Positions 16,031-59,804 of a DNA stretch of 64,000 nucleotides are shown here, piece after piece. The stretch lies in sequence record HE978309. One strand, 5' to 3'. Position 1 is the stretch's first letter, and each line of letters opens with the position of its first letter. The notes under the pieces were generated by a model, which had not been told where the DNA came from, did no database searches, and worked only from the letters and a program-made list of their open reading frames with translations. The translations under genes were made by a program, and so were the position numbers. The stretch is from Enterobacteria phage GEC-3S.

Positions 16031-16243
16031 TTATAATGCACCATCGAGCAATTGCTCTAAGGTGTATCCTGAATAGTCTTTTTCAATCAGGGTATATTTT
16101 CCTACTCGTTTAATACAACCGCGCATTTCCACGTATTCTGTGTAGTTGATGGTACGAGTTGTTCCATCTTCCAGTAATGCAGTACCGATTTCGTTAATGC
16201 GGTCATAAGTTACGTCGGTAATGATGATTTCGATGTTAGCCAT
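16031..16243 (-). CDS. hypothetical early protein (70 aa)
   Basis: ORF track; GGAGTATCAA RBS; promoter cassette upstream. Confidence 0.5.
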   Translation of the reverse strand: MANIEIIITDVTYDRINEIGTALLEDGTTRTINYTEYVEMRGCIKRVGKYTLIEKDYSGYTLEQLLDGAL

Positions 16244-16277
16244 TTGATACTCCTTAGTAGTTCGTTTCGGTATGGGT

Positions 16278-16318
16278 GTATTATGATATACACCCTCTGT
16301 TATGTCAACAACTTTTTA
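16278..16318 (-). promoter_or_regulatory. early promoter cassette (PeSL-like)
   Basis: minus strand TTGACA, 17 nt, CATAAT; stem-loop GGGTGTAT...ATACACCC. Confidence 0.55.
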
Positions 16319-16495
16319 GAACATTTTTGAAATTAATTTTGCTTTGATTTCGCAGAGAACACCTAAAGATTTCTCGTCACCCGCTTTTGCTGCTTCTGAT
16401 TGCATTTTTGAAATGGCTTCAATGTCAGTGCAATTATAAGCCGCTTGAACTTTAGCGATTGCGATGATTGCCGATTCGATGGTTAAGTGTTTCAT
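16316..16495 (-). CDS. hypothetical small protein (59 aa)
   Basis: sub-60-aa ORF MKHLTIESAIIAIAK...; GGAGAATCAAAC RBS; own promoter cassette. Confidence 0.45.
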   Translation of the reverse strand: MKHLTIESAIIAIAKVQAAYNCTDIEAISKMQSEAAKAGDEKSLGVLCEIKAKLISKMF

Positions 16496-16524
16496 GTTTG
16501 ATTCTCCTTTCGTTTCGGTATGTG

Positions 16525-16566
16525 TGCATTATAGGGGATCACCGATCCCCTGTCAACAACTTTTTA
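16525..16566 (-). promoter_or_regulatory. early promoter cassette (PeSL-like)
   Basis: TTGACA, spacer GGGGATCGGTGATCCCC (17-nt palindrome), TATAAT. Confidence 0.6.
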
Positions 16567-17082
16567 GTTATTTTTTAATTGCTCATCTTGCAATAGGGAA
16601 ATCACATGCTGGCGATGTTCTTCCGATTGAGGAACACCGAAAAAGTTTGTTTTGTAGAAATACTCTAATCGGTCTTCTCGTGTGCTCTCTTCCATCATGA
16701 TCGCGGGTAGTCCGAGATTTCGGAAACGTCGCTTTTCTGCTGGCGTAAAATCACTGTAATACAACATAGAATCATCATTACCCGCAATGCTAAATTCATC
16801 CTTCATAAAGGAGAATATTGCGTTTAAACGCTGTTTACCGTCCACGATTTCGATCTCATAGCGAGATCCATCATCAATCTTAGCCATTGCGATAGCACCA
16901 ACCGGAAAATCATTAATCAGGTTTTCGATAAACATACGTTTGTTTTCGGTGTCCCATACCAAAGGACGCTGATAATCTGGGTTCATGTTGATATAGCCAT
17001 CTTCTAACCACGCCTCATAAACAGAGATGACAAAGTTTTTAGTATTGGTATAGTAACGGCGTTTAGGCGTTAAACGGTTCAT
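16564..17082 (-). CDS. DUF262 (ParB/GmrS N-terminal-like) domain protein
   Basis: ORF track 16564..17118; start ATG coupled to upstream stop (TAACATG) with AGGAGA RBS; motifs PDYQRPLVWD and IVDGKQRL. Confidence 0.6.
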   Translation of the reverse strand: MNRLTPKRRYYTNTKNFVISVYEAWLEDGYINMNPDYQRPLVWDTENKRMFIENLINDFPVGAIAMAKIDDGSRYEIEIVDGKQRLNAIFSFMKDEFSIAGNDDSMLYYSDFTPAEKRRFRNLGLPAIMMEESTREDRLEYFYKTNFFGVPQSEEHRQHVISLLQDEQLKNN

Positions 17083-31593: not shown

Positions 31594-31635
31594 AGTATCT
31601 TACTACTCCCGTGATATGCTGTCAACTGCTTTTTT
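31594..31635 (-). promoter_or_regulatory. early promoter cassette (PeSL-like)
   Basis: TTGACA, spacer with GGGAGTAGTAAGATACTCC hairpin. Confidence 0.5.
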
Positions 31636-31783
31636 ATGCAACCGCAAACATCAACATTTGAACATTCTTGGCTGTCTGGCTTTCAAAGTTCTGACATTCT
31701 TTGATAATGTCCTCTACTTTCTCTCCGGAGATCTCCGCGTAAGTTTCGATTGCCATTTTCAGTACCGCGTCAAAGTTGTTCAT
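31634..31783 (-). CDS. hypothetical small protein (49 aa)
   Basis: sub-60-aa ORF MNNFDAVLKMAIETYAEISGEK...; AAGGAGAATCAA RBS. Confidence 0.4.
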   Translation of the reverse strand: MNNFDAVLKMAIETYAEISGEKVEDIIKECQNFESQTAKNVQMLMFAVA

Positions 31784-31818
31784 TTGATTCTCCTTAAAGT
31801 GTATTTCGTTTCGATGGG

Positions 31819-39154: not shown

Positions 39155-39484
39155 TCAAATCAGTTTGAAATAGTTTTCGTTTACATTTTCTTCTGTGATT
39201 GCTGTCTTAAATTCTTGACCGTTATCCGGTGTGATGAAATAACGGTCAGAATAATCACGAAAACGTTTTAAGTGAGATACCCCAACATTAACACCATTTT
39301 CCCAAAAACGAAAGGTAATCATTTTTGGTTCATATCGATAGTCGCTGGTTAACACAGTACCATCACCGCGACGGGCTTCATAAACCGTAATACATTCACG
39401 ATTAGCGGCTTTAAGGCATTCTTCAATAGTGCCGCATGAGATAATACTTACTTTTTCATCTACGATTTGTTCTACAGTCCACAT
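39155..39484 (-). CDS. hypothetical protein (~109 aa)
   Basis: ORF track 39155..39517; the first ATG lies inside the promoter -10; second ATG has GAGAGGAT RBS. Confidence 0.45.
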   Translation of the reverse strand: MWTVEQIVDEKVSIISCGTIEECLKAANRECITVYEARRGDGTVLTSDYRYEPKMITFRFWENGVNVGVSHLKRFRDYSDRYFITPDNGQEFKTAITEENVNENYFKLI

Positions 39485-39512
39485 AATATAATCCTCTCTT
39501 TGTTTCGATATG

Positions 39513-39554
39513 TGCATTATACACTATTGCGTTACGCTGTCAACTCTTTTTCAA
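39513..39554 (-). promoter_or_regulatory. early promoter (sigma70-like)
   Basis: TTGACA, about 16 nt, TATAAT. Confidence 0.5.
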
Positions 39555-40710
39555 AAGATTTTACGATATACATGATGGTGCTCAATTCGGACGGCGCTAC
39601 TGTCTCTGTGTAGCCATCCGGCATATCTTCTTTCGAGATATAGGAAGTTTTACCTTTCATTGCTTCCTTGATTTTGTTCTCTAATTCTAAGATCTTTTGA
39701 CCGTCTTGTAAAGTCAATTCATAAAAGATCTCATGATCGAACTTTGAAACACGAGATTGGTTTCTCATGCGCTCATGTGTTTCTTTGTTTGTTATTCCAA
39801 ATTTCACGCCAACAAAGGAATCATTGTTGGTTAATTTCTGTATATAAAGAGTTCCTGTCTTTAATGCCTGATAACCATGCTTAGAACACAACGGGCAGCG
39901 TGTTCCGCGATTAACAAAATTATCAATAGTTACATCCCATTCATGGTTACGTTCGCATGTCAGAAGTATTCTTGTTAATGCACCTTTCCACTTTCCTGAA
40001 ATCCCAATAAATTTTAGTCTGTTGGTTTCGCATATTTTTTCAATTTGTTTTAATCGGTCACTTTTTGTTATTGGTGCTGTTCCGCTACATTTGCGACACC
40101 GACGACCTAGTTTGAACTTATCATAACTTTGTTCGTAAATGTGATTATTAGGACACTCAAATTTAAGTTTAGTTTTTGTTCCTCTCCATTCCCCAATTAT
40201 ACCCAAAAATTTATAATCTCCTTTATTTTCATTTATATAAGATAAGGAATCTTCTTTATCATGCATCTTGCCCCCGTTACATAAAGGACATCTTGTTTTT
40301 TGATGAATGAAATCTGTATATGTTGGTTGGTATGTGTGTCCGTTTGTACAGTTCATAATGAGTCTTGTTCTGCTATTTTTATACTCCCCACCAACAAAAC
40401 CAACAAATACATCGTTTGTTTCTTGTTTTATTCTTTCTATCACATTGTTTGGGTTTAATCTTTGAGAATCAACCACACATTTCTTACACGAAACTTTTTT
40501 CCTGATATTTGCTAGAGTTGATGTGTATTCATGCTTGTTATTACATAATATAAGAGCTTTTGTTTTGAGACCAGACCATTCTCCAACAAACCCCATGAAA
40601 GAATAACCAACTTCCAAACATGATTTTTTTACAACATTTTCCCAATAGAAGGGAGTTTTCGTGTTTCCTTTTATTTCTATACGAATCTCATGTGCTTGAC
40701 GTACTAACAT
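39532..40710 (-). CDS. protein with four zinc-ribbon repeats and a C-terminal T5orf172/GIY-YIG-like domain
   Basis: ORF track 39532..40755; start MLVRQAHEIR with GGAGGA RBS; four repeats of G..G.W.G..TK....C...H.Y...(F)....RC..C; C-terminal GTLYIQKL...VGVKFGITN. Confidence 0.55.
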   Translation of the reverse strand: MLVRQAHEIRIEIKGNTKTPFYWENVVKKSCLEVGYSFMGFVGEWSGLKTKALILCNNKHEYTSTLANIRKKVSCKKCVVDSQRLNPNNVIERIKQETNDVFVGFVGGEYKNSRTRLIMNCTNGHTYQPTYTDFIHQKTRCPLCNGGKMHDKEDSLSYINENKGDYKFLGIIGEWRGTKTKLKFECPNNHIYEQSYDKFKLGRRCRKCSGTAPITKSDRLKQIEKICETNRLKFIGISGKWKGALTRILLTCERNHEWDVTIDNFVNRGTRCPLCSKHGYQALKTGTLYIQKLTNNDSFVGVKFGITNKETHERMRNQSRVSKFDHEIFYELTLQDGQKILELENKIKEAMKGKTSYISKEDMPDGYTETVAPSELSTIMYIVKSFEKELTA

Positions 40711-40737
40711 ATTTTTATCCTCCGTTGTTTCGATGAT

Positions 40738-40779
40738 TGTATTATACATTACCACATCAGCATGTCAATACATTTTCAT
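40738..40779 (-). promoter_or_regulatory. early promoter (sigma70-like)
   Basis: TTGACA, 16-17 nt, TATAAT, directly after the gp32 terminator. Confidence 0.5.
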
Positions 40780-40789
40780 AAAATTTTAG

Positions 40790-40820
40790 GCAATAAAAAA
40801 GCCTTCCCGAAGGAAGGCTT
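40790..40820 (-). terminator. rho-independent terminator after gene 32
   Basis: hairpin AAGCCUUCC-UUCG-GGAAGGCUU then UUUUUUAU. Confidence 0.55.
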
Positions 40821-51570: not shown

Positions 51571-54339
51571 ATGGCAGATTTAAGCAGAATCCAATTTAAA
51601 CGCACTAGCACTAAAGGTCGTAAACCTGATGCTAGTACGATGAATCCGGGGGAATTGGCAATCAACCTTGCGGATCAATATCTTCTTACTAAAAATGATT
51701 CCGGTGCTATTATCAATTTAAGTTGCCCTCCGGTGTATGACCGTGATGTTACAATGGCGGGTAAGGTTAAAGGTAATAATTATATCTTAGGTAAAACCGC
51801 CAACTATCTGGAAGATCAGACAGCGCGAGATCTTAACTACTTTGGTGCTTTCCGTACCAATGGTCTTGATGGTTTTCTCGAACTCACGCTAAACGTTCCT
51901 CATTCTTCTGGTGTTCAGCATGGTCGAGGATTTACTTTCCAGTATGGACACACAGGAAACCGTGTAGAAACTTATGGTTATAATAAAGAAGGACAAAAAG
52001 CATTTAGCTATAAAATGTATCACGAAGGTGATAAACCAACACCCTCAGAATTGAACGTTTACAGCAAACAAGAAGTTGACCGTATGTTTGTTAAAAACGT
52101 TAAACTTGCTACAGTTCCTGGTGATATAGTTGACGGTTATTTTAAATTAGCAACTGCAATGATTCCGCAAAGCGGTCGTAGTGTATTTTTCCGTATTCAT
52201 GGTGGTAACGGATATAACGTTACTGCATACGATCAAGTTGATATTGTAGAAATTGTTATTCGCAGTGGAAATAATCGTCCTAAAGGTGTTAACGTTATTG
52301 CATATCGCCGAAATACAAACAAAGCATTTGATGTTTTGGCTGTTAATACTTCTGGTGATAACTATGATATCTACGTGAAATATCAGCGTTATACTGATAA
52401 CGTTATTGTTGAATTTGGTAAAAGTGTTGATGTTAATCTGGTAGTCCATGACGTTCCAGACTTTGTTGTTGATCGTCCTGCTGGCGATAATGTTATTGGC
52501 GGTCGCGCGGTAACTCTTTTTAACACCGAAAACAAACGAGGTGTGTTGAGTTTTGACGATAACACACAAAATAGTTATGATATTGTTCACTTGAGTAATG
52601 ATAGGGGTACTGGACGAAAATATATTCGTAAATTCCGTAGTAACTATAATGAAATGATCTGGCACGAGACGGTTCAAGGCGCCAGCTATCGTCTGGCTAC
52701 TGGTGCAACTGATGTTCAGGAGATTCTAACCGTTGAATCTGTTAGCTCAATTGCTGGAACTCATAAAGGTAATATTACTTCTGGCCGTATGCTGTTAAAT
52801 GGTGGTAGTAATGTTATTACCTTGCGGCGTCCTGCTGGTCAATCCAACCATATTGCGTTTCAAGATAATCGTACTGGAGATATTACCCGTCAAGGATGGA
52901 TCGGTTATGCCAATGCTGATACTAACGTTTTTGAATGGTATAGTGATGTAGGTGGCAGTTCTATTCGTCAACATATCGACGGACAGATCGAATTTCAGAC
53001 AGGTAGCATGAAGCGAGTTTATACTAACGGACAATTCATTTCATTATATGCCGATGGCTTCCGTACAGTATATGGAAACTATGGTTCATGGTGGCGAAAT
53101 GACGGTAGTAACGTTTATCTGATGAGCACAAAATCAGGCGACACTATGGGTCCGTGGAATACCTTTAGGCCGTTCATATACAGTCTCGCCAATGGAAACG
53201 TTACTCTAGGTGGTAGCGATGCTGGCAACCATTTAATGCGTCTCAATAATGAAAATCGTCAAGTAGAAATAAATGCAACAACACATTTAGGGTCTCGATT
53301 ATATTGGGAACGTAGCGAAGGATCGGCATCTAGATTTTTTATTAAGAATTGGGGTAATGGATCTTCTCGCGCTCAAGTGTGGGAACTTGCTGACGAGACA
53401 GGTTATCATGTATATTCTCAGCGAAACGACGCGGGTGTTCTTCAATTCCGTACTGCTGGTAATTTTGAGACTGGTGGTGATGCTCAAGTAAACGGGACTT
53501 TACGTGTCACCAATGTTCTTCGAACAGATAACCAAATTCAGATTTATCGCGATAACAACAAAGAACTCTGGTTTAAGGATGCTAATGGTACTAACCGTGG
53601 TGTTATCTGGGGTGATAGCACAGGTCAAATGCGCATTCGAAACTATAACAGCGGAGAATTTGACCATGTTTTCCAGACTGGTATGATTCGCTTAGAACGT
53701 GGGTATGCAAACGGTAGCGACCGTGGTTTGATTCGCGGAGAAGTACAAGGTGGTGCTTGGTCAGAATGGAAAACTCGCGCTGCTGGCTTATTGGTTGACT
53801 GTCCAGCTGCTCAAACTTCCGCATATAACGTATGGAAAGCGACCAAATGGGGTTTAGACCACATCGCGGCAATGGGCGTTCATGTTCCTAGTGGCGTTAT
53901 TACTAATGCTATGGCACGTCTTCATATTCATACCACAAACTTTGACTTTAACGCCTCCGGTGATTTCCAAGCAGGTCGTAACGGTAATTTTAACGATGTG
54001 TATATTCGTTCTGATGCTCGCCTTAAAATCAATAAGGAAGAGTATAAGGAGAATGCCACCGATAAAGTTAATCGCTTGACGGTATACACCTATGACAAGG
54101 TTAAATCTTTAACCGACCGTACTGTCATTGCTCATGAAGTTGGTATTATTGCTCAGGATCTTGAGAAAGAATTGCCGGAAGCCGTAACAACTTCTAAGGT
54201 CGGCGATCCTGATAAGCCAGAAGAGATCTTAACAATTTCTAACTCTGCTGTCAACGCTCTTTTAATTAAGGCGTTTCAGGAAATGAGCGAAGAACTTAAA
54301 GCCGTTAAAGCTGAACTAGCGGAACTTAAAAAGAATTAA
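51571..54339 (+). CDS. 37: gp37 long tail fibre distal subunit with C-terminal intramolecular chaperone (peptidase S74-like) domain
   Basis: 922 aa; N-terminus MADLSRIQFKRTSTKGRKP similar to T4 gp37; C-terminal about 110 aa begins SDARLKINKE. Confidence 0.8.
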   Translation: MADLSRIQFKRTSTKGRKPDASTMNPGELAINLADQYLLTKNDSGAIINLSCPPVYDRDVTMAGKVKGNNYILGKTANYLEDQTARDLNYFGAFRTNGLDGFLELTLNVPHSSGVQHGRGFTFQYGHTGNRVETYGYNKEGQKAFSYKMYHEGDKPTPSELNVYSKQEVDRMFVKNVKLATVPGDIVDGYFKLATAMIPQSGRSVFFRIHGGNGYNVTAYDQVDIVEIVIRSGNNRPKGVNVIAYRRNTNKAFDVLAVNTSGDNYDIYVKYQRYTDNVIVEFGKSVDVNLVVHDVPDFVVDRPAGDNVIGGRAVTLFNTENKRGVLSFDDNTQNSYDIVHLSNDRGTGRKYIRKFRSNYNEMIWHETVQGASYRLATGATDVQEILTVESVSSIAGTHKGNITSGRMLLNGGSNVITLRRPAGQSNHIAFQDNRTGDITRQGWIGYANADTNVFEWYSDVGGSSIRQHIDGQIEFQTGSMKRVYTNGQFISLYADGFRTVYGNYGSWWRNDGSNVYLMSTKSGDTMGPWNTFRPFIYSLANGNVTLGGSDAGNHLMRLNNENRQVEINATTHLGSRLYWERSEGSASRFFIKNWGNGSSRAQVWELADETGYHVYSQRNDAGVLQFRTAGNFETGGDAQVNGTLRVTNVLRTDNQIQIYRDNNKELWFKDANGTNRGVIWGDSTGQMRIRNYNSGEFDHVFQTGMIRLERGYANGSDRGLIRGEVQGGAWSEWKTRAAGLLVDCPAAQTSAYNVWKATKWGLDHIAAMGVHVPSGVITNAMARLHIHTTNFDFNASGDFQAGRNGNFNDVYIRSDARLKINKEEYKENATDKVNRLTVYTYDKVKSLTDRTVIAHEVGIIAQDLEKELPEAVTTSKVGDPDKPEEILTISNSAVNALLIKAFQEMSEELKAVKAELAELKKN

Positions 54340-55315: not shown

Positions 55316-55347
55316 AAGGGGAAGCCTTTCGGCCTCCCCTTCTTTTT
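55316..55347. terminator. terminator between convergent genes
   Basis: hairpin with UUUC/GAAA loop followed by TTCTTTTTATT. Confidence 0.55.
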
Positions 55348-55594
55348 ATTGGCGCATAGAAGCCCCTGAATCACATTTTGACGCTGTATGATGAAAACAG
55401 GTAGCGTACCAGTCATCGGCTTGTTTGTCTTCGTCAGAAAACGCGTAATTGCGTTGTATGCCGTTTTCTACTTTGACCAGTGCAATAGCTGTTTCTGGAA
55501 GATCAATCAATCGGACAAAATCACCATCTTCCCACTCTACACGAGCAATATCATAGCCCATCTCAAAGTATACAATCGCTTGTTCTAATTTCAT
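55346..55594 (-). CDS. DUF2829-like small protein, candidate Tad2-type anti-defence sponge
   Basis: 82 aa; pattern ...YDIARVEW...DKQADDWY resembles DUF2829/Tad2 as I recall it. Confidence 0.4.
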   Translation of the reverse strand: MKLEQAIVYFEMGYDIARVEWEDGDFVRLIDLPETAIALVKVENGIQRNYAFSDEDKQADDWYATCFHHTASKCDSGASMRQ

Positions 55595-55914
55595 TCTGGA
55601 AACTTCCCGTAAACATTCTCTGCCAGCTTACGTGCATCTTTTACAATATCTTTCATGTAGTGACTATAATTTTTAGCTAGATCAATGATGCAATCAACAA
55701 AGAAGTAATAGCGTCGCAGTGCTACCAGCTCAACATCTTCAAGATGACCATTTTCTCCAATCGCTGAAATATGTTTAAATTCCTTTCGGATCGCATCCAT
55801 CGCTACATTAACTTCTTTTATAATATCTTTCGTATTATATGCACCTCGACTAATCAAAATTTTGGTTAGGTCTTCTGCTTTTTCGTGAAAGTTGTCAATT
55901 TCAAACTCGATCAT
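55591..55914 (-). CDS. hypothetical protein, paralog pair member 1
   Basis: ORF track 55591..55920 starts at GTG; ATG with GAGAGGTGA RBS; C-terminus ...ENVYGKF. Confidence 0.45.
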   Translation of the reverse strand: MIEFEIDNFHEKAEDLTKILISRGAYNTKDIIKEVNVAMDAIRKEFKHISAIGENGHLEDVELVALRRYYFFVDCIIDLAKNYSHYMKDIVKDARKLAENVYGKFPE

Positions 55915-56028
55915 AATCACCTCTCATAATTTCACGCTGTTGTTTCAACATTTTTTCGTGGTTTGCTAATTCTATACCTTGTAATAGCATAACCAGTGCA
56001 ATTTTCAATGATTCATCATCTTTCATAA

Positions 56029-56361
56029 TCAAAATTTACCGAAAATATTCTCTGTCATAATTCTTGCTTCGTCGATTATTTTCGTCATGTTCATGGTGTA
56101 GTTATGATCATTTAATGCCTTAATGACAACGAGCAAGGAATCTAAAAACACTCGATACCGGGTATATTCTACGCTATTTGTGAATACCGATGTTTTCTCT
56201 ACTTTATCGATCAGATAGCCTAAAACCGATAGCGCCTCGTTTACTTCCCTTGTTACTTTATCGGCGCTAAACAACACCGGATAAAGACGCGGTGTGATTA
56301 ACCGCGCTGCCTCTTTCAATTCGGTCGCTTTCCATGATTCATATTTGTCATAGTTAAACAA
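56029..56361 (-). CDS. hypothetical protein, paralog pair member 2
   Basis: 110 aa; C-terminus ...ENIFGKF. Confidence 0.45.
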   Translation of the reverse strand: MFNYDKYESWKATELKEAARLITPRLYPVLFSADKVTREVNEALSVLGYLIDKVEKTSVFTNSVEYTRYRVFLDSLLVVIKALNDHNYTMNMTKIIDEARIMTENIFGKF

Positions 56362-56373
56362 TGTATAATCTCC

Positions 56374-56706
56374 TTACAGATGAAAACCTGTTACAATCAC
56401 CGCATCGATCATACCGCTAGGAATAAACGGTTCGCCCTCTTTTATTTCAACTTTGAATTGATGCCATTTCGCTAATACTTCTTCCGGTACACCCAGCGAT
56501 TCGGCGTCTGCTTTAGTTTCATCCATAATCCAACTAGGCTGCATGAGAGCATAGTTTACATAGTCCATTTCTGGGGTCATGTCATCAATGTTAATATATT
56601 TGCAGTTGACGCGTTTCAGAATTTCAAATTCTTTATTGTCAACCTGTACCATGTATAATTCAGTAGTTTCTGGAATCAGTTCCCACACAATCAGTACATT
56701 TTTCAT
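56374..56706 (-). CDS. hypothetical protein (110 aa)
   Basis: ORF track. Confidence 0.45.
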   Translation of the reverse strand: MKNVLIVWELIPETTELYMVQVDNKEFEILKRVNCKYINIDDMTPEMDYVNYALMQPSWIMDETKADAESLGVPEEVLAKWHQFKVEIKEGEPFIPSGMIDAVIVTGFHL

Positions 56707-56714
56707 AGTTCACC

Positions 56715-57083
56715 TCACTTAACAAAGATTTTCTTTAATGCTTTCAGGATCGTTGCTTCCGGCGCTTCTTCCGGTGGAGGAAGCAATTCTACCACTTCCT
56801 CTTCCAACTCGATATAGTCTACCAGATATTCTACATAGAATGCAAGTGCTTCCATGAAATTAGATGCTACATCCGATTCGCCACACGCGCCCACATGCAT
56901 TGTATAAACATCACTGCGATCAAGTTTGTGGATGCTCCCCAGATAGTTTCGGTTATACCAGACTTCCCACACTTTCAACTTTCCGGTTTTGGTTGCTGTT
57001 TTATAATCGGTTTCGTAATGATGCAATTGACGTTGCAGATCATTGATAATAACACATTTTTCGTAATTGTTTTGAATTTCCAT
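56715..57083 (-). CDS. hypothetical protein (122 aa)
   Basis: ORF track. Confidence 0.45.
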   Translation of the reverse strand: MEIQNNYEKCVIINDLQRQLHHYETDYKTATKTGKLKVWEVWYNRNYLGSIHKLDRSDVYTMHVGACGESDVASNFMEALAFYVEYLVDYIELEEEVVELLPPPEEAPEATILKALKKIFVK

Positions 57084-57093
57084 GATGTAATCC

Positions 57094-57285
57094 TCACTTA
57101 TCGTTAAGAAGTTCTAAAACTTTCTGTCGTACTTTGTCAATATTAGTTGATTCAAAAACTGTACGGTATCCCCAACCTTGACCGTATGATCGCGAGCAAT
57201 CCCCATATCCCCATTGTTCAACCTGATAGTATTCAAGGAATTGGTGCTGCCGAACTATGATACCATCGCGATTAAAAATTACCAT
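57094..57285 (-). CDS. hypothetical protein (63 aa)
   Basis: ORF track. Confidence 0.4.
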   Translation of the reverse strand: MVIFNRDGIIVRQHQFLEYYQVEQWGYGDCSRSYGQGWGYRTVFESTNIDKVRQKVLELLNDK

Positions 57286-57308: not shown

Positions 57309-57590
57309 TTATTTTCGGTTGTAATTCTGCCACTTTCGGTAATACTGCTTGTAATATTGTTTAATGTTTGGTGGTTCGTCACTATACATGTTATCAACCA
57401 TCATGTCAATAAGACCTTCCGGTGTTTGATAGTTACCCGCTCGAATGAGTTCCTTAATCAAAAGATCTTGTGTCGCTTTATACTTGACAATAACAACTGT
57501 CTTTTCTGCCTTTCCAATTCCGATCCGGTCGTTAGCTCTCATAGCATCCCACCAATCTTTTTTAAACTTCATGTTGTTAAATTTCATCAT
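57309..57590 (-). CDS. hypothetical protein (93 aa)
   Basis: ORF track. Confidence 0.4.
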   Translation of the reverse strand: MMKFNNMKFKKDWWDAMRANDRIGIGKAEKTVVIVKYKATQDLLIKELIRAGNYQTPEGLIDMMVDNMYSDEPPNIKQYYKQYYRKWQNYNRK

Positions 57591-58391
57591 TTAACCCTTC
57601 TTATATTCGCAAACATATTGAGTACCATAATCATAGCTAATGCGACCTTTCTCGATGACTTCAAAGCGGATTTCATCGTTTTCCCCTACCCACATTTTGT
57701 ACTCGTTGAAGTATCCTGCTACATCCGGTTTGCTCATACCAACAACCATATTTTTATATTGTTTGCTGCGTGTCAGATTTGATTTAAACACTTCGCGCTC
57801 ATCAACATATACGAAAGAAGACAATTCACCTTCGGTCATGGTCATTTTCAGCTTGCCGCCCTTGTTGCCATAAGTAGAGTTGCCATACAATGGATCTTTG
57901 CGGCTGTCTGTTTCAATACCATCAATGATTTTCCATGTAAATTTTGCAATGCACTGATAAGTGATAGATCCAGAGATTTTCTCTTCTTTCTTCTGTTCTT
58001 CCACCACTTTTTCTTCCTGTTTCGGCTGTTCTTCTTCAACCTTCACGGAAGTCTCTGAATCGATTTCTGACGCGGTTTCTTCTTTAGGTAATACATTCAT
58101 CAAGTTTTGGATTTGAGCGTTATATACAGCCTCCAGTGGCTGGATCTGCCCGATATTGATCATTGTATCACGAACAGTTTTATTCCAGTTGCGTTGCTCT
58201 TGTTTAAGAGACGGATCAATCTTAACAGCCTTAACATATACTTCATGAAGTTTCGAATCCAGTGCGGAGATTGACTCATTAGCACAAATAAACTTCTCTG
58301 ATTTGGTAGTAGCTTTAGCGCAATCAAAGGACGCAGCATTAGCACCGAAAGCAGTAGCAGAAAGAACGATAGCAGCGATAATGTTTTTCAT
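57591..58391 (-). CDS. secreted protein with DUF1311 (LprI-like) N-terminal domain
   Basis: 266 aa; signal peptide MKNIIAAIVLSATAFGANA; FDCAKATTKSEKFIC...LDSKLHEVY. Confidence 0.5.
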   Translation of the reverse strand: MKNIIAAIVLSATAFGANAASFDCAKATTKSEKFICANESISALDSKLHEVYVKAVKIDPSLKQEQRNWNKTVRDTMINIGQIQPLEAVYNAQIQNLMNVLPKEETASEIDSETSVKVEEEQPKQEEKVVEEQKKEEKISGSITYQCIAKFTWKIIDGIETDSRKDPLYGNSTYGNKGGKLKMTMTEGELSSFVYVDEREVFKSNLTRSKQYKNMVVGMSKPDVAGYFNEYKMWVGENDEIRFEVIEKGRISYDYGTQYVCEYKKG

Positions 58392-58463: not shown

Positions 58464-58673
58464 ATTTTTACCCACTCGTGCATTAATGCGCATTTTCTGC
58501 ATAGCCATGATCTGGTTTACTGCTTCTTCTTTACGTTCTTGCGTGATAACGTGACCAGATTCCGCAAACTCTCCAGCAACTTCTTCTACGATCTCGCGAA
58601 CTTGAGAACGTCCAAAGATGCGGTTTCCTTCGTAGCTCATAAATTCAGTCACTACTTGCTCAATAGATTTCAT
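58461..58673 (-). CDS. hypothetical protein (70 aa)
   Basis: ORF track; GGAGAATCACATG RBS. Confidence 0.5.
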   Translation of the reverse strand: MKSIEQVVTEFMSYEGNRIFGRSQVREIVEEVAGEFAESGHVITQERKEEAVNQIMAMQKMRINARVGKN

Positions 58674-58703
58674 GTGATTCTCCTTCTTTCGTTTCGGTGT
58701 GGT

Positions 58704-58745
58704 AGTATGTTAATACTCCCATTTCTTTACGTCAACCAGTTTTTA
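58704..58745 (-). promoter_or_regulatory. early promoter cassette (PeSL-like)
   Basis: TTGACG then TAACAT-like -10, conserved leader. Confidence 0.45.
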
Positions 58746-58985
58746 GAAATTTTTCGCTTCTTCTTCGGTCATCATCACCGCGCATTCGTGCATAACTTTG
58801 AAAACCGGGTCAATCATATCGAATGCTTCGCGGGACAGTTTACGAGAAGCGATTTTGACTGCTTCAACGTCTTCTACTACAGGAACAAAAACAGTTTTCA
58901 GTTCGTCGAGCATGGCAGCTTCTTTTTCATTCAGGAAGATTCCAGCGTCGTACAATGCAACTTCGATAACATTAACTTTAACCAT
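58743..58985 (-). CDS. hypothetical protein (~80 aa)
   Basis: ORF track 58743..59048; start MVKVNVIE with GGAGGAAATAAAA RBS. Confidence 0.45.
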   Translation of the reverse strand: MVKVNVIEVALYDAGIFLNEKEAAMLDELKTVFVPVVEDVEAVKIASRKLSREAFDMIDPVFKVMHECAVMMTEEEAKNF

Positions 58986-59016
58986 TTTTATTTCCTCCAG
59001 TTCGTTTCGGTATGGG

Positions 59017-59058
59017 AGTATAATACTACCGATGACCTTTGGCGTCAACTAGTTTTTG
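59017..59058 (-). promoter_or_regulatory. early promoter cassette (PeSL-like)
   Basis: TTGACG, 17 nt, TATTAT-like, conserved leader ACTCCCATACCGAAACGAAC. Confidence 0.5.
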
Positions 59059-59249
59059 TTATTTTCGTGAAAATTTTTCGTCGCCTCATGTGCTTTTCTC
59101 TGGGCTTCTTGTTGTGCTTGCTGGCGTGCTGCCTCTTGCGATGTCATAACGGAAGCATTTGCAGCAGTTACAGCCGCGACCATCGCTGCGGTATTAGCAT
59201 TTACAGTACATGCACTAGCCAGCAAAGCAATTGCAATCATTTTCTTCAT
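59049..59249 (-). CDS. small secreted/periplasmic protein (66 aa)
   Basis: signal peptide MKKMIAIALLASACTVNA; Gln/Ala-rich mature part. Confidence 0.45.
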   Translation of the reverse strand: MKKMIAIALLASACTVNANTAAMVAAVTAANASVMTSQEAARQQAQQEAQRKAHEATKNFHENNKN

Positions 59250-59416
59250 AGTTTCCCCTTTAGGTTATCTTCGACCTTCATCCATTCCGCGTATTCTTGC
59301 GCGGCTACTTTCGGATTTAGTCCGTCTTCGTACATTGCTTCAAGTAATTCTTCGTCGGTGGGCTTATACCCTAGATAAGCCTCCACCTGATTTTTCCAAA
59401 TTTTATACCAGTTCAT
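59246..59416 (-). CDS. hypothetical small protein (56 aa)
   Basis: ORF track 59246..59485; start MNWYKIWKNQ with GGTGATAAT RBS. Confidence 0.4.
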   Translation of the reverse strand: MNWYKIWKNQVEAYLGYKPTDEELLEAMYEDGLNPKVAAQEYAEWMKVEDNLKGKL

Positions 59417-59420
59417 ATTA

Positions 59421-59693
59421 TCACCAGTCAAGAGCGCGTGTCTCTGCGTCTTCCCATGCTTGATCCATAACAGCCTTGAAAACATATTCTAAAGTATCAT
59501 CTTTAGAGAATCCGAAGACCTTAGACGGGATATCTTCAATTGCTACTCCCGCAACTTCTGCATTACGCGCTTGGCAATAATGCAACTCTAAGTTATCGAG
59601 ATAGCGACCGCCTAATTTCTCCATATCATCCCAGCATTTCCAGTAACCTACTTTATCTGCAATTGCTAACACTTTGCTGTTTTTGTTGCTCAT
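59421..59693 (-). CDS. hypothetical protein (90 aa)
   Basis: ORF track 59421..59783; start MSNKNSK with AAAAGGAGAATCAAAG RBS. Confidence 0.45.
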   Translation of the reverse strand: MSNKNSKVLAIADKVGYWKCWDDMEKLGGRYLDNLELHYCQARNAEVAGVAIEDIPSKVFGFSKDDTLEYVFKAVMDQAWEDAETRALDW

Positions 59694-59721
59694 CTTTGAT
59701 TCTCCTTTTGTTTGGTATGGG

Positions 59722-59763
59722 TGTATTATGCAATGCTGGATTTGTGAAGTCAACAACTTTTTA
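59722..59763 (-). promoter_or_regulatory. early promoter cassette (PeSL-like)
   Basis: TTGACT, 17 nt, CATAAT, conserved leader ACACCCATACCAAACAAAAGGAGAATCAAAG. Confidence 0.55.
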
Positions 59764-59793
59764 AAATAAAAAAAGCCGACCACAAGGATCGGC
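59764..59793 (-). terminator. rho-independent terminator
   Basis: hairpin AGCCGAUCC-UUGU-GGUCGGCU then UUUUUUUAUUUU. Confidence 0.55.
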
Positions 59794-59804
59794 TTAATAA
59801 TCAG

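What the first reader, a model, noticed from the sequence alone, without database searches (positions are those of the whole stretch)
55591..56361. Paralogous pair of about 110-aa proteins downstream of the DUF2829-like gene
55591..55914 and 56029..56361 share a C-terminal ...(D/E)AR...EN(V/I)(Y/F)GKF and similar predicted helical organisation. They occupy the asiA/arn/motA neighbourhood of T4, but none of the three could be recognised.
Basis: seen in the sequence. Interest (0 to 1): 0.3.

Follow-up and report, generated by a model that had tools for sequence, protein, structure and literature searches.

The report
Shuffled paralog pair in RB49-like phage
Two neighbouring early genes of an RB49-like E. 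coli phage are true diverged duplicates encoding small four-helix proteins of unknown function; they form one of the few swap-prone, highly variable spots in otherwise near-identical phage genomes, which suggests (unproven) a host-interaction or counter-defence role.

Summary
Both ORFs are on the minus strand at the coordinates given: A, 55591..55914, 107 aa; B, 56029..56361, 110 aa with a TTG start. They are orthologues of RB49p256 and RB49p257, annotated "hypothetical" in every record.

- **Paralogy:** BLASTP gives E 6e-8 over the C-terminal 43 aa. Both match phrog_9457 over their full length, and both are predicted as four-helix proteins (pLDDT 86 and 91).
- **Not AsiA, MotA or Arn:** I found no sequence or fold similarity to any of the three, and none of them is detectable anywhere in the window.
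- **Distribution:** the family is confined to Krischvirus. An exhaustive profile search of 1.84 billion representatives found four clusters.
- **New finding:** the locus is a recombining polymorphic cassette.
  - Flanking proteins are 98-100% identical between Krischvirus genomes.
  - A occurs as at least six allele classes (28-70% identity).
  - B occurs as two classes, or is absent.
  - dN/dS is 0.04-0.37 and dS between classes is about 1 or more, so these are old, functional alleles that get shuffled.
- **Linkage:** A always lies directly upstream of, and overlaps by 4 nt, an invariant Tad2-like (Thoeris anti-defence) gene.

My best guess, which is inferred and not shown, is that these are early cytoplasmic protein-binding modulators, probably counter-defence. 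Interest is moderate.

The parts
56029..56361 (-). Paralogue B (110 aa, TTG start; orthologue of RB49p257 / RB49ORF255c). Optional member of the cassette: two allele classes, or absent.
   Evidence: ORF. phrog_9457 E 2.7e-43. AF2 model with four helices, pLDDT 91.4, pTM 0.85. RB49 annotation. 97% identical in SSG23, 68% in kvi, absent in ECD7 and in L011. The start codon is ATG in the five relatives compared and TTG here.
55901..56026 (-). Small 41-aa ORF between B and A (orthologue of RB49p256.1, phrog_17009). It overlaps the start of A by 14 nt and is dispensable.
   Evidence: phrog_17009 E 1.2e-32. Annotated in RB49 and TB34. Present in SSG23 as 36 aa; absent in kvi, ECD7, L004 and L011. 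No match to the A/B family HMM.
55591..55914 (-). Paralogue A (107 aa; orthologue of RB49p256). Present in all 57 phage records that carry the family and highly polymorphic, with at least six allele classes.
   Evidence: ORF. phrog_9457 E 7.9e-57. AF2 model with four helices, pLDDT 86, pTM 0.80. 57 of 57 Krischvirus records by tblastn: 42 at 95% or more, 15 below 60%. Allele identity matrix 28-70%. Ribosome-binding site GAGGTG 5 nt before the ATG.
55591..55638 (-). Last 15 codons of A (DARKLAENVYGKFPE) plus the stop codon. This is the conserved C-terminal motif, and DNA identity returns to about 100% from about here. The stop overlaps the Tad2-like start (ATGA).
   Evidence: Sliding DNA identity across four genomes: about 60% through A, rising to 25-30 of 30 from sense coordinate 1071. 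B keeps the same motif with different codons. The distant allele A6 and the L014 copy keep it through synonymous changes. Overlap sequence ...CCAGAATGAAA.
55346..55594 (-). Downstream gene, likely translationally coupled: 82-aa Tad2-like (DUF2829) protein. Last gene of the transcription unit and essentially invariant.
   Evidence: PF11195 Tad2-like, E 3.4e-6, 27.9 bits against a cutoff of 25. 97.6-100% identical in the same 57 records that carry A. Same A, Tad2-like, holin arrangement in the more distant contig L003.
57381..57409 (-). Best sigma-70-type promoter-like site upstream of the gene chain 57285..55346 (TTGACA, 17 nt, TATAGT).
   Evidence: 11 of 12 consensus match. This is a pattern match only. 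No late-promoter TATAAATA on the minus strand anywhere near the locus. Gaps between genes from 57285 down to 55346 are 12 nt or less, or the genes overlap.
55318..55339 (.). G+C-rich hairpin between the convergent genes t and Tad2-like. Likely end of the transcription unit.
   Evidence: Sequence GGGGAAGCCTTTCGGCCTCCCC followed by TTCTTTTTATT. The equivalent site is annotated as a terminator in phage TB34. The simple scan did not list it, which may be because the stem has one mismatch.

Best explanation
The finding is a tandem pair of diverged duplicates of one ORFan gene family restricted to Krischvirus (phrog_9457; RB49p256 and RB49p257). Each encodes a soluble protein of about 12 kDa predicted to fold into four helices, with no relative among characterised families or solved structures. 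They appear to be transcribed on the minus strand as part of a tightly packed early-type gene chain: 57285 to 55346, genes g6957, g1594, g4658, B, small ORF, A, Tad2-like. The chain ends at the hairpin shared with the holin gene t. The locus behaves as a polymorphic cassette. Old, purifying-selected allele lineages of A (at least six classes) and B (two classes, or absent) are swapped by homologous recombination into backbones that are otherwise about 98% identical. One boundary lies at the g4658/B junction and the other inside the conserved last 15 codons of A. Proposed mechanism (inferred, not shown): A and B are early cytoplasmic protein-binding modulators of a variable partner, most likely a polymorphic E. 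coli/Shigella immune or stress component, i.e. counter-defence. In this view the conserved helix-2 (E/D)(V/I)N motif and the helix-4 A(R)..EN.(Y/F)G motif hold the scaffold, while the variable helices 1-3 and the loop between helices 2 and 3 set specificity. The anatomy, paralogy, distribution and cassette behaviour are shown (about 0.95 confidence). The counter-defence function is a guess from context, and the confidence given here refers to it.
For: Paralogy and reality of the genes; AF2 models; cross-match to the B orthologue in BFVD. dN/dS is 0.04-0.37 in all 12 pairs where it could be estimated (the 13th was saturated at synonymous sites), with dS about 0.8-2.7 between classes. A is intact in 57 of 57 phage records.

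Restricted family: only 4 clusters at 50% identity among 1.84 billion representatives. Every phage record is a Krischvirus infecting Escherichia or Shigella. No Pfam or NCBIfam family matches. No PDB sequence or fold neighbour.

Cassette behaviour: Tad2-like is 98-100%, g4658 99% and g1594 98-100% identical between genomes, against 49-53% for A and 68%, 97% or absence for B. The DNA identity boundaries are sharp. This locus is one of about 11 islands below 80% identity in 64 kb against ECD7, where the median is 98%; another such island is the gp37 receptor-binding tip. Allele combinations B1+A1, B1+A4, B1+A5, B2+A3, B2+A4, none+A2 and none+A4 all occur.

Context pointing to host interaction or counter-defence: the chain looks early-type, with a sigma-70-like promoter and no late promoter. 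A overlaps the start of a Pfam Tad2-like gene by 4 nt, in Krischvirus and in the more distant L003. The same t-to-52 interval in T4 holds asiA, arn (anti-McrBC) and motA. The proteins are hydrophilic, with GRAVY -0.31 and -0.14.
Against: No experiment or homology links either protein to any defence system. No paper mentions them. Sitting next to a Tad2-like gene is weak evidence, because almost every gene in this hyperplastic region is a packed ORFan. Other neighbours are just as polymorphic, for example g15915 at 47%, so variability may reflect the region rather than this family's function. dN/dS below 1 shows no positive selection. The alleles differ by age and exchange, which would also fit neutral modular shuffling of dispensable genes (Arbiol et al. 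2010, PMC2839356). Neither protein is strongly acidic (net charge -4.1 and -0.4), so a DNA-mimic anti-restriction role like Ocr or Arn is unlikely.
Confidence: 0.4

Rival explanations
1. A and/or B are the Krischvirus functional analogues of AsiA (or of the AsiA-MotA pair): small helical early proteins that bind sigma-70 region 4 or another RNA polymerase surface to shut off or redirect host transcription.
For: Similar size (107-110 aa against 90) and an all-helical prediction. Early-type operon in the t-to-52 interval where T4 has asiA and motA. No motA orthologue was found in RB49, and RB49 is not among the phages listed as having AsiA (PMC1524935), and none is detectable in this window. That leaves open how, or whether, RB49 remodels sigma-70.
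Against: No sequence similarity: hhalign probability 0.4%; HMM against T4 ORFs best E 0.23; no Pfam hit. AsiA and MotA structures do not appear among the listed Foldseek matches. The proposed target (sigma-70 region 4, RNA polymerase) is essentially invariant in E. coli, from my own knowledge. That fits badly with six allele classes at 28-70% identity and an optional B. Attempts to find a middle-promoter consensus in RB49 were unsuccessful (PMC1524935). The slot next to t, where asiA lies in T4, is taken by the Tad2-like gene.
Confidence: 0.07
2. A (with or without B) works together with the Tad2-like protein, for example as a partner subunit, a chaperone, or a second sponge for immune signalling nucleotides.
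For: A and the Tad2-like gene occur in exactly the same 57 phage records and are always adjacent, with an ATGA stop/start overlap. The adjacency persists in the more distant L003, where Tad2-like is only 48% identical. Known sponge proteins are small oligomeric phage proteins (from my own knowledge, and the abstracts listed).
Against: The Tad2-like protein is invariant (97.6-100%) while A varies from 28 to 70%. Obligate partners would be expected to co-vary. Tad2 is known to act alone as a homo-oligomer (from my own knowledge). Foldseek shows no fold similarity to Acb2, Tad1 or Tad2 structures. B is dispensable.
Confidence: 0.12
3. The family acts in phage-phage competition, for example superinfection exclusion or immunity-like proteins, so allele classes mark incompatibility groups among co-circulating Krischviruses.
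For: A tandem array of small, helical, highly polymorphic paralogues resembles immunity-gene arrays in general terms. Old allele lineages are maintained side by side in near-identical backbones. That pattern is what balancing or frequency-dependent selection would give.
Against: No toxin-like or nuclease gene is recognisable next to the pair, since all neighbours are PHROGs of unknown function. There is no membrane segment, unlike T4 Imm and Sp (GRAVY negative; comparison from my own knowledge). No data exist on exclusion among Krischviruses.
Confidence: 0.12
4. The genes have no specific selected role. They are dispensable ORFans that drift and are shuffled as passengers of the hyperplastic region.
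For: They lie in a known hyperplastic region of RB49-like genomes, where ORFans are inserted, deleted and replaced (PMC2839356). B and the small ORF are absent from some genomes. One metagenomic copy of A is split by a homopolymer indel. B has a weak TTG start in this window.
Against: dN/dS is 0.04-0.37 within and between classes. A is intact in all 57 isolates. The C-terminal motif is kept at protein level through synonymous changes and in both paralogues. The predicted folds are confident.
Confidence: 0.1

Closest known systems
phrog_9457 / RB49p256 and RB49p257 (RB49ORF255c for B): hypothetical proteins of Krischvirus
   Same: Both window proteins are full-length members. They are 93-100% identical to annotated proteins of RB49, JSE, Phi1 and others.
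   Different: Nothing differs. This is the family itself. It has no assigned function and no paper mentions it.
T4 AsiA (anti-sigma-70, 90 aa, PDB 1JR5)
   Same: A small, all-helical early protein encoded in the interval between t and gene 52 on the same strand.
   Different: No sequence similarity and no fold match listed. AsiA lies directly next to t, where this phage has the Tad2-like gene. AsiA is conserved among the phages that have it (from my own knowledge), whereas A and B are highly polymorphic.
ORFan cassettes of the hyperplastic regions of RB49/phi1, shuffled through PeSL promoter/stem-loop motifs (Arbiol et al. 2010, PMC2839356)
   Same: Same phage group and the same phenomenon: ORFans replaced, deleted or inserted between near-identical genomes through short patches of homology.
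   Different: No PeSL can flank these genes, because the gaps are 2-12 nt or the genes overlap. One exchange boundary lies inside the coding sequence of A, in its conserved last 15 codons. A is replaced by homologous alleles rather than gained or lost.
T-even internal-protein (ipI/ipII/ipIII) polymorphic locus, including IPI*, the inhibitor of the GmrSD restriction enzyme
   Same: A comparison from my own knowledge: small accessory proteins of T4-type phages with a short conserved terminal peptide on an otherwise very variable body, exchanged between close relatives. At least one of them is a counter-defence protein.
   Different: Internal proteins carry an N-terminal capsid-targeting sequence and are packaged in the head. 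Here the conserved peptide is C-terminal and forms part of helix 4. There is no late promoter and no sequence relationship. This comparison was not tested with tools.
Tad2 / DUF2829 (PF11195), Thoeris anti-defence sponge
   Same: The gene immediately downstream of A matches this Pfam family and always accompanies A.
   Different: A and B do not match PF11195 themselves. They are predicted all-helical and have no fold match to sponge proteins. Whether the Krischvirus Tad2-like protein is active is unknown.

Membership tests
phrog_9457 (Krischvirus ORFan family) | Significant full-length match to the family profile | tested here: met
   A: E 7.9e-57, residues 1-107 on profile positions 1-107. 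B: E 2.7e-43, residues 7-110 on profile positions 1-105.
AsiA (anti-sigma-70 of T4-type phages) | Sequence similarity to AsiA or its Pfam family | tested here: not met
   No Pfam family at E <= 0.01, nor for any of the 17 aligned members at E <= 10. hhalign of the family against T4 AsiA gives probability 0.4% (AsiA sequence verified against 1JR5). tblastn of AsiA against the window gives a best E of 7.5.
AsiA (anti-sigma-70 of T4-type phages) | AsiA-like helical fold | tested here: not met
   Foldseek of both models against the PDB, which holds 1JR5, 1TLH and 6K4Y, gives no match at E <= 0.001, and AsiA is not among the 50 listed matches.
AsiA (anti-sigma-70 of T4-type phages) | Binds sigma-70 region 4 and inhibits -35-dependent transcription | not testable with these tools
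   Needs binding or transcription assays.
MotA (middle-promoter activator) | Protein of about 211 aa with an N-terminal activation domain and a C-terminal double-wing DNA-binding domain, plus sequence similarity | tested here: not met
   A and B are single four-helix domains of 107 and 110 aa. No Pfam hit. tblastn of MotA against the window gives a best E of 1.5. The family HMM against T4 motA gives E 4.4.
Arn (anti-McrBC DNA mimic) | Sequence similarity and a strongly acidic, DNA-mimicking surface | tested here: not met
   tblastn of Arn against the window gives a best E of 1.0. The HMM against the T4 ORF containing arn gives E 0.23. Net charge is only -4.1 (A) and -0.4 (B).
Tad2-like / DUF2829 (PF11195) | Match to PF11195 above the gathering score | tested here: not met
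   A and B give no hit. Only the downstream 82-aa gene matches, at 27.9 bits against a cutoff of 25.
PeSL-flanked ORFan cassette (Arbiol et al. 2010) | Early promoter plus stem-loop motif in the intergenic spaces flanking the ORFan | tested here: not met
   The spaces around B, the small ORF and A are 12 nt, 2 nt, a 14-nt overlap and a 4-nt overlap. No promoter- or terminator-like site lies between 56373 and 55594 on the minus strand.
Polymorphic (allelic) cassette in near-identical backbones | Flanks nearly identical, homologous but highly diverged alleles between them, sharp boundaries, independent assortment | tested here: met
   for the pattern. dS of about 1 or more between classes, in backbones about 98% identical in DNA.

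The most novel reading that the evidence does not exclude
A and B found a new anti-defence (or host-takeover) protein family with a previously unseen four-helix fold. Each allele class would neutralise a different variant of a polymorphic E. coli/Shigella immune protein. Together with the invariant Tad2-like gene they would form a small counter-defence operon whose specificity module is exchanged by recombination between co-circulating Krischviruses.
Probability: 0.25. Interest if true: 0.6.

Novelty: new member of a known kind. Interest (0 to 1): 0.35.

Why it matters
RB49-like phages (Krischvirus) are common candidates for coliphage therapy, and the literature read here identifies neither AsiA nor MotA in them. 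Most of their early genes are unexplained ORFans.

This work marks out one compact locus with four properties. It is always present. It is among the few strongly variable spots in genomes otherwise about 98% identical, alongside the receptor-binding tail-fibre tip. It is under purifying selection. It is physically coupled to a Tad2-like gene. Natural allele swaps in isogenic-like backgrounds already exist among sequenced isolates, so the question "does this cassette set host range or defence evasion?" can be tested directly by comparing or exchanging alleles.

If the answer is no, the locus is still a clean example of modular exchange that does not depend on PeSL motifs and has a crossover point inside a coding sequence.

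Tried and rejected
- **Chance similarity:** rejected.
- **AsiA, MotA or Arn identity:** rejected by Pfam, hhalign, the family HMM against T4 t-ndd ORFs, tblastn of the T4 proteins against the window and Foldseek.
- **Any known family:** Pfam, NCBIfam and PDB sequence searches gave only noise. The best were glutaredoxin 2 at E 0.018 and 3-dehydroquinate dehydratase at E 0.054; neither is credible.
- **Fold neighbours:** the best PDB matches are designed helical repeats at E about 1 and TM 0.5 or less. In BFVD only family members match, plus one Aeromonas phage 226-aa protein at E 0.36, which I did not follow up.
- **Wider relatives:** the exhaustive profile search found 4 clusters. Protein-seeded scans of IMG/VR found nothing confirmable. 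A degenerate DNA pattern for AENxYGKFPE found 2 viral loci and 1 metagenome locus, all Krischvirus-like.
- **A third paralogue in the window:** none.
- **Diversity-generating or in-place hypermutation:** rejected. Divergence is spread across the gene, with dS near saturation and dN/dS below 1.
- **DNA-mimic anti-restriction protein:** unlikely, given the modest charge.
- **Literature:** no paper names these ORFs, and two papers on Tad2 and sponge proteins do not mention RB49-like phages.
Full report
**What the window is.**
The 2.1 kb around the finding is 98-99% identical to RB49, JSE, Phi1, KFS-EC and dozens of other Krischvirus (Straboviridae) coliphages. Gene order is gp37, Dc5-like and holin t on the plus strand. 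A long minus-strand run of small genes then leads to gene 52 and rIIB. In T4 this t-to-52 interval holds asiA, asiA.1, arn, arn.1-4 and motA.

**Checking the observation.**
Both ORFs exist at the stated coordinates, on the minus strand.
- A is 55591..55914 (107 aa, ATG preceded by GAGGTG).
- B is 56029..56361 (110 aa, TTG start preceded by AAGGAG).
- They are the orthologues of RB49p256 and RB49p257.
- A 41-aa ORF (RB49p256.1, phrog_17009) lies between them.

The C-terminal motif is as described. BLASTP aligns the last 43 residues at 37% identity, E 6e-8. In 5000 shuffles none reached the local score (z = 9.6). The N-terminal two thirds are not significant pairwise.

Homology still extends over the whole length:
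- Both proteins match phrog_9457 end to end (E 7.9e-57 and 2.7e-43).
- The family alignment shows shared (E/D)(V/I)N (helix 2, N invariant), Y..F.D (helix 3) and A(R)...EN.(Y/F)G (helix 4) positions.
- Intermediate alleles such as kvi A3 and P0030 begin MFN.D/N like B.
- AlphaFold2 gives four helices in the same order for both: A with pLDDT 86 and pTM 0.80, B with pLDDT 91.4 and pTM 0.85.
- The A model matches the BFVD model of the JEP8 orthologue of B at TM 0.71.

The paralogy is real.

**What they are not.**
- Neither protein, nor any of 17 aligned family members, matches a Pfam or NCBIfam family credibly.
- A family profile finds no PDB sequence (best E 0.054).
- Foldseek finds no PDB structure for either model (best E about 1, TM 0.5 or less, mostly designed helical repeats).
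- hhalign against T4 AsiA gives 0.4% probability.
- The family HMM finds nothing among T4 ORFs from t to ndd.
- T4 AsiA, Arn and MotA find nothing in the 64-kb window, while gp52 does at 2e-147.

This matches Nolan et al. 2006, who could find no motA orthologue or middle promoters in RB49 and do not list RB49 among the phages with AsiA (PMC1524935). The proteins are hydrophilic and only mildly acidic or neutral, so they are not DNA mimics of the Ocr or Arn kind.

**Distribution.**
An exhaustive HMMER search of 1.84 billion representative proteins returned four clusters: B, A1 and two metagenomic A-like alleles. The word-indexed searches gave 4 and 24 proteins. In GenBank phages the family is in 57 records, all Krischvirus from Escherichia or Shigella. 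Every source calls them hypothetical, and no paper in the library names them.

**The main new result: a polymorphic cassette.**
I compared the window with ECD7, kvi and SSG23.

| Gene | Identity to the window protein |
|---|---|
| Tad2-like | 98-100% |
| g4658 | 99% |
| g1594 | 98-100% |
| A | 49-53% |
| B | 97% (SSG23), 68% (kvi), absent with the small ORF (ECD7) |

DNA identity falls from about 100% to about 60-70% exactly at the g4658/B junction. It returns to about 100% in the last 45 nt or so of A and continues into the Tad2-like gene.

Against ECD7 the window has a median identity of 98%, and only about 11 islands fall below 80%. This locus (55601-56400) is one of them, and the gp37 tip is another.

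With metagenomic contigs added, A falls into at least six classes (28-70% pairwise identity) and B into two (69%). The combinations B1+A1, B1+A4, B1+A5, B2+A3, B2+A4, none+A2 and none+A4 all occur, so recombination also happens between the two genes.

dN/dS is 0.04-0.37 in every comparison where it could be estimated. dS between classes is about 0.8-2.7, while the surrounding backbones are about 98% identical in DNA. These are therefore old, functional allele lineages that are exchanged, not genes that diversified in place and not decaying ORFs.

The C-terminal motif is constrained at the protein level:
- B encodes it with different codons.
- The distant allele A6 keeps it, although its neighbouring Tad2-like gene is only 48% identical.
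- Two A4 copies differ there by several nucleotide changes, of which only one changes a residue (V to I).

**Operon context.**
From 57285 down to 55346 the genes are separated by 12 nt or less, or they overlap. A's stop overlaps the Tad2-like start (ATGA). The best promoter-like site is TTGACA-17-TATAGT at 57409..57381 (a pattern match only). No late-promoter TATAAATA lies nearby. A hairpin shared with the convergent t gene closes the unit, and TB34 annotates the equivalent site as a terminator.

The last gene matches Pfam Tad2-like/DUF2829 just above threshold. It occurs in the same 57 records as A at 97.6-100% identity. The A, Tad2-like, holin order also holds in a more distant contig.

RB49-type genomes are known to shuffle ORFans through PeSL promoter/stem-loop motifs (Arbiol et al. 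2010, PMC2839356). There is no room for such motifs here, and one boundary lies inside a coding sequence, so this exchange uses coding homology instead.

**Interpretation.**
Shown: a genuine tandem paralogue pair of a genus-restricted family of small four-helix proteins. It sits in what looks like an early operon, is under purifying selection, and forms a recombining polymorphic cassette coupled to an invariant Tad2-like gene.

Inferred: the proteins probably act by binding a variable partner. A would be the constant slot with exchangeable specificity, and B an optional second copy. Counter-defence is the most economical guess given the timing, the neighbour, the analogous T4 interval and the polymorphism. 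I put it at about 0.4.

The AsiA-analogue idea is attractive because of position and size. It fits poorly with the extreme polymorphism of A and B, since the target would be invariant, and no similarity supports it (about 0.07). The remaining alternatives are partnership with Tad2-like, phage-phage competition and functionless passenger ORFans. The tests that would refute each are given under the rival explanations.

**Verdict.**
The pair is not an overlooked asiA, motA or arn. It belongs to the known class of hyperplastic-region ORFans of T4-type phages. What sets it apart is its allelic-cassette behaviour and its fixed coupling to a Tad2-like gene. Interest is moderate (0.35), and the function remains to be shown experimentally.

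Noticed in passing
window 55346..55594 (-): This 82-aa gene matches Pfam Tad2-like/DUF2829 (Thoeris anti-defence 2), at 27.9 bits against a cutoff of 25. It is 97.6-100% conserved in all 57 Krischvirus records and occupies the slot next to t where T4 has asiA. Whether it binds gcADPR is unknown.
   Followed up: partly
window 56359..56361 (-): B starts with TTG in this window. RB49, TB34, SSG23, kvi and a metagenomic copy all have ATG at the same position. This single A-to-T change may lower translation of B in this phage.
   Followed up: partly
window 57309..57590 (-): The 93-aa gene (phrog_15915) two genes upstream of g4658 is also polymorphic. It is 47-48% identical to the ECD7 and kvi versions, while the genes on the side examined are 95-100% identical. 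It looks like a second allelic cassette in the same early region.
   Followed up: no
window 57591..58391 (-): This 266-aa protein has a signal peptide and a faint LprI (PF07007) hit. Its C-terminal half is replaced by unrelated sequence in the ECD7-like contigs L010 and L011.
   Followed up: no
window 56715..57083 (-): The 122-aa product (phrog_1594) is annotated in RB49 as similar to a T4 12.8-kDa protein of the asiA-motA region. Its metagenomic copies carry a precomputed PF26821 (Phage_T4_Y16F) hit, yet my own Pfam scan gave nothing at E <= 0.01.
   Followed up: no
window 16201-16600, 31601-31800, 39401-40800, 53001-54000, 58601-59800: These are the other islands below 80% DNA identity to phage ECD7, in a window whose median identity is 98%. 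53001-54000 is the distal part of gp37 (receptor recognition). I did not examine the others.
   Followed up: no
L014 1844..2159: A metagenomic copy of allele A4 is split into 34-aa and 77-aa ORFs by one extra A in a run of six. This is either an assembly error or a natural frameshift.
   Followed up: no
BFVD entry A0A5B9N3B2 (Aeromonas phage 2L372X, 226 aa): This is the only match to the A model outside the family with a notable Foldseek probability (0.92, E 0.36, TM 0.53). It could be a distant two-domain relative in another T4-type phage, or it could be noise.
   Followed up: no
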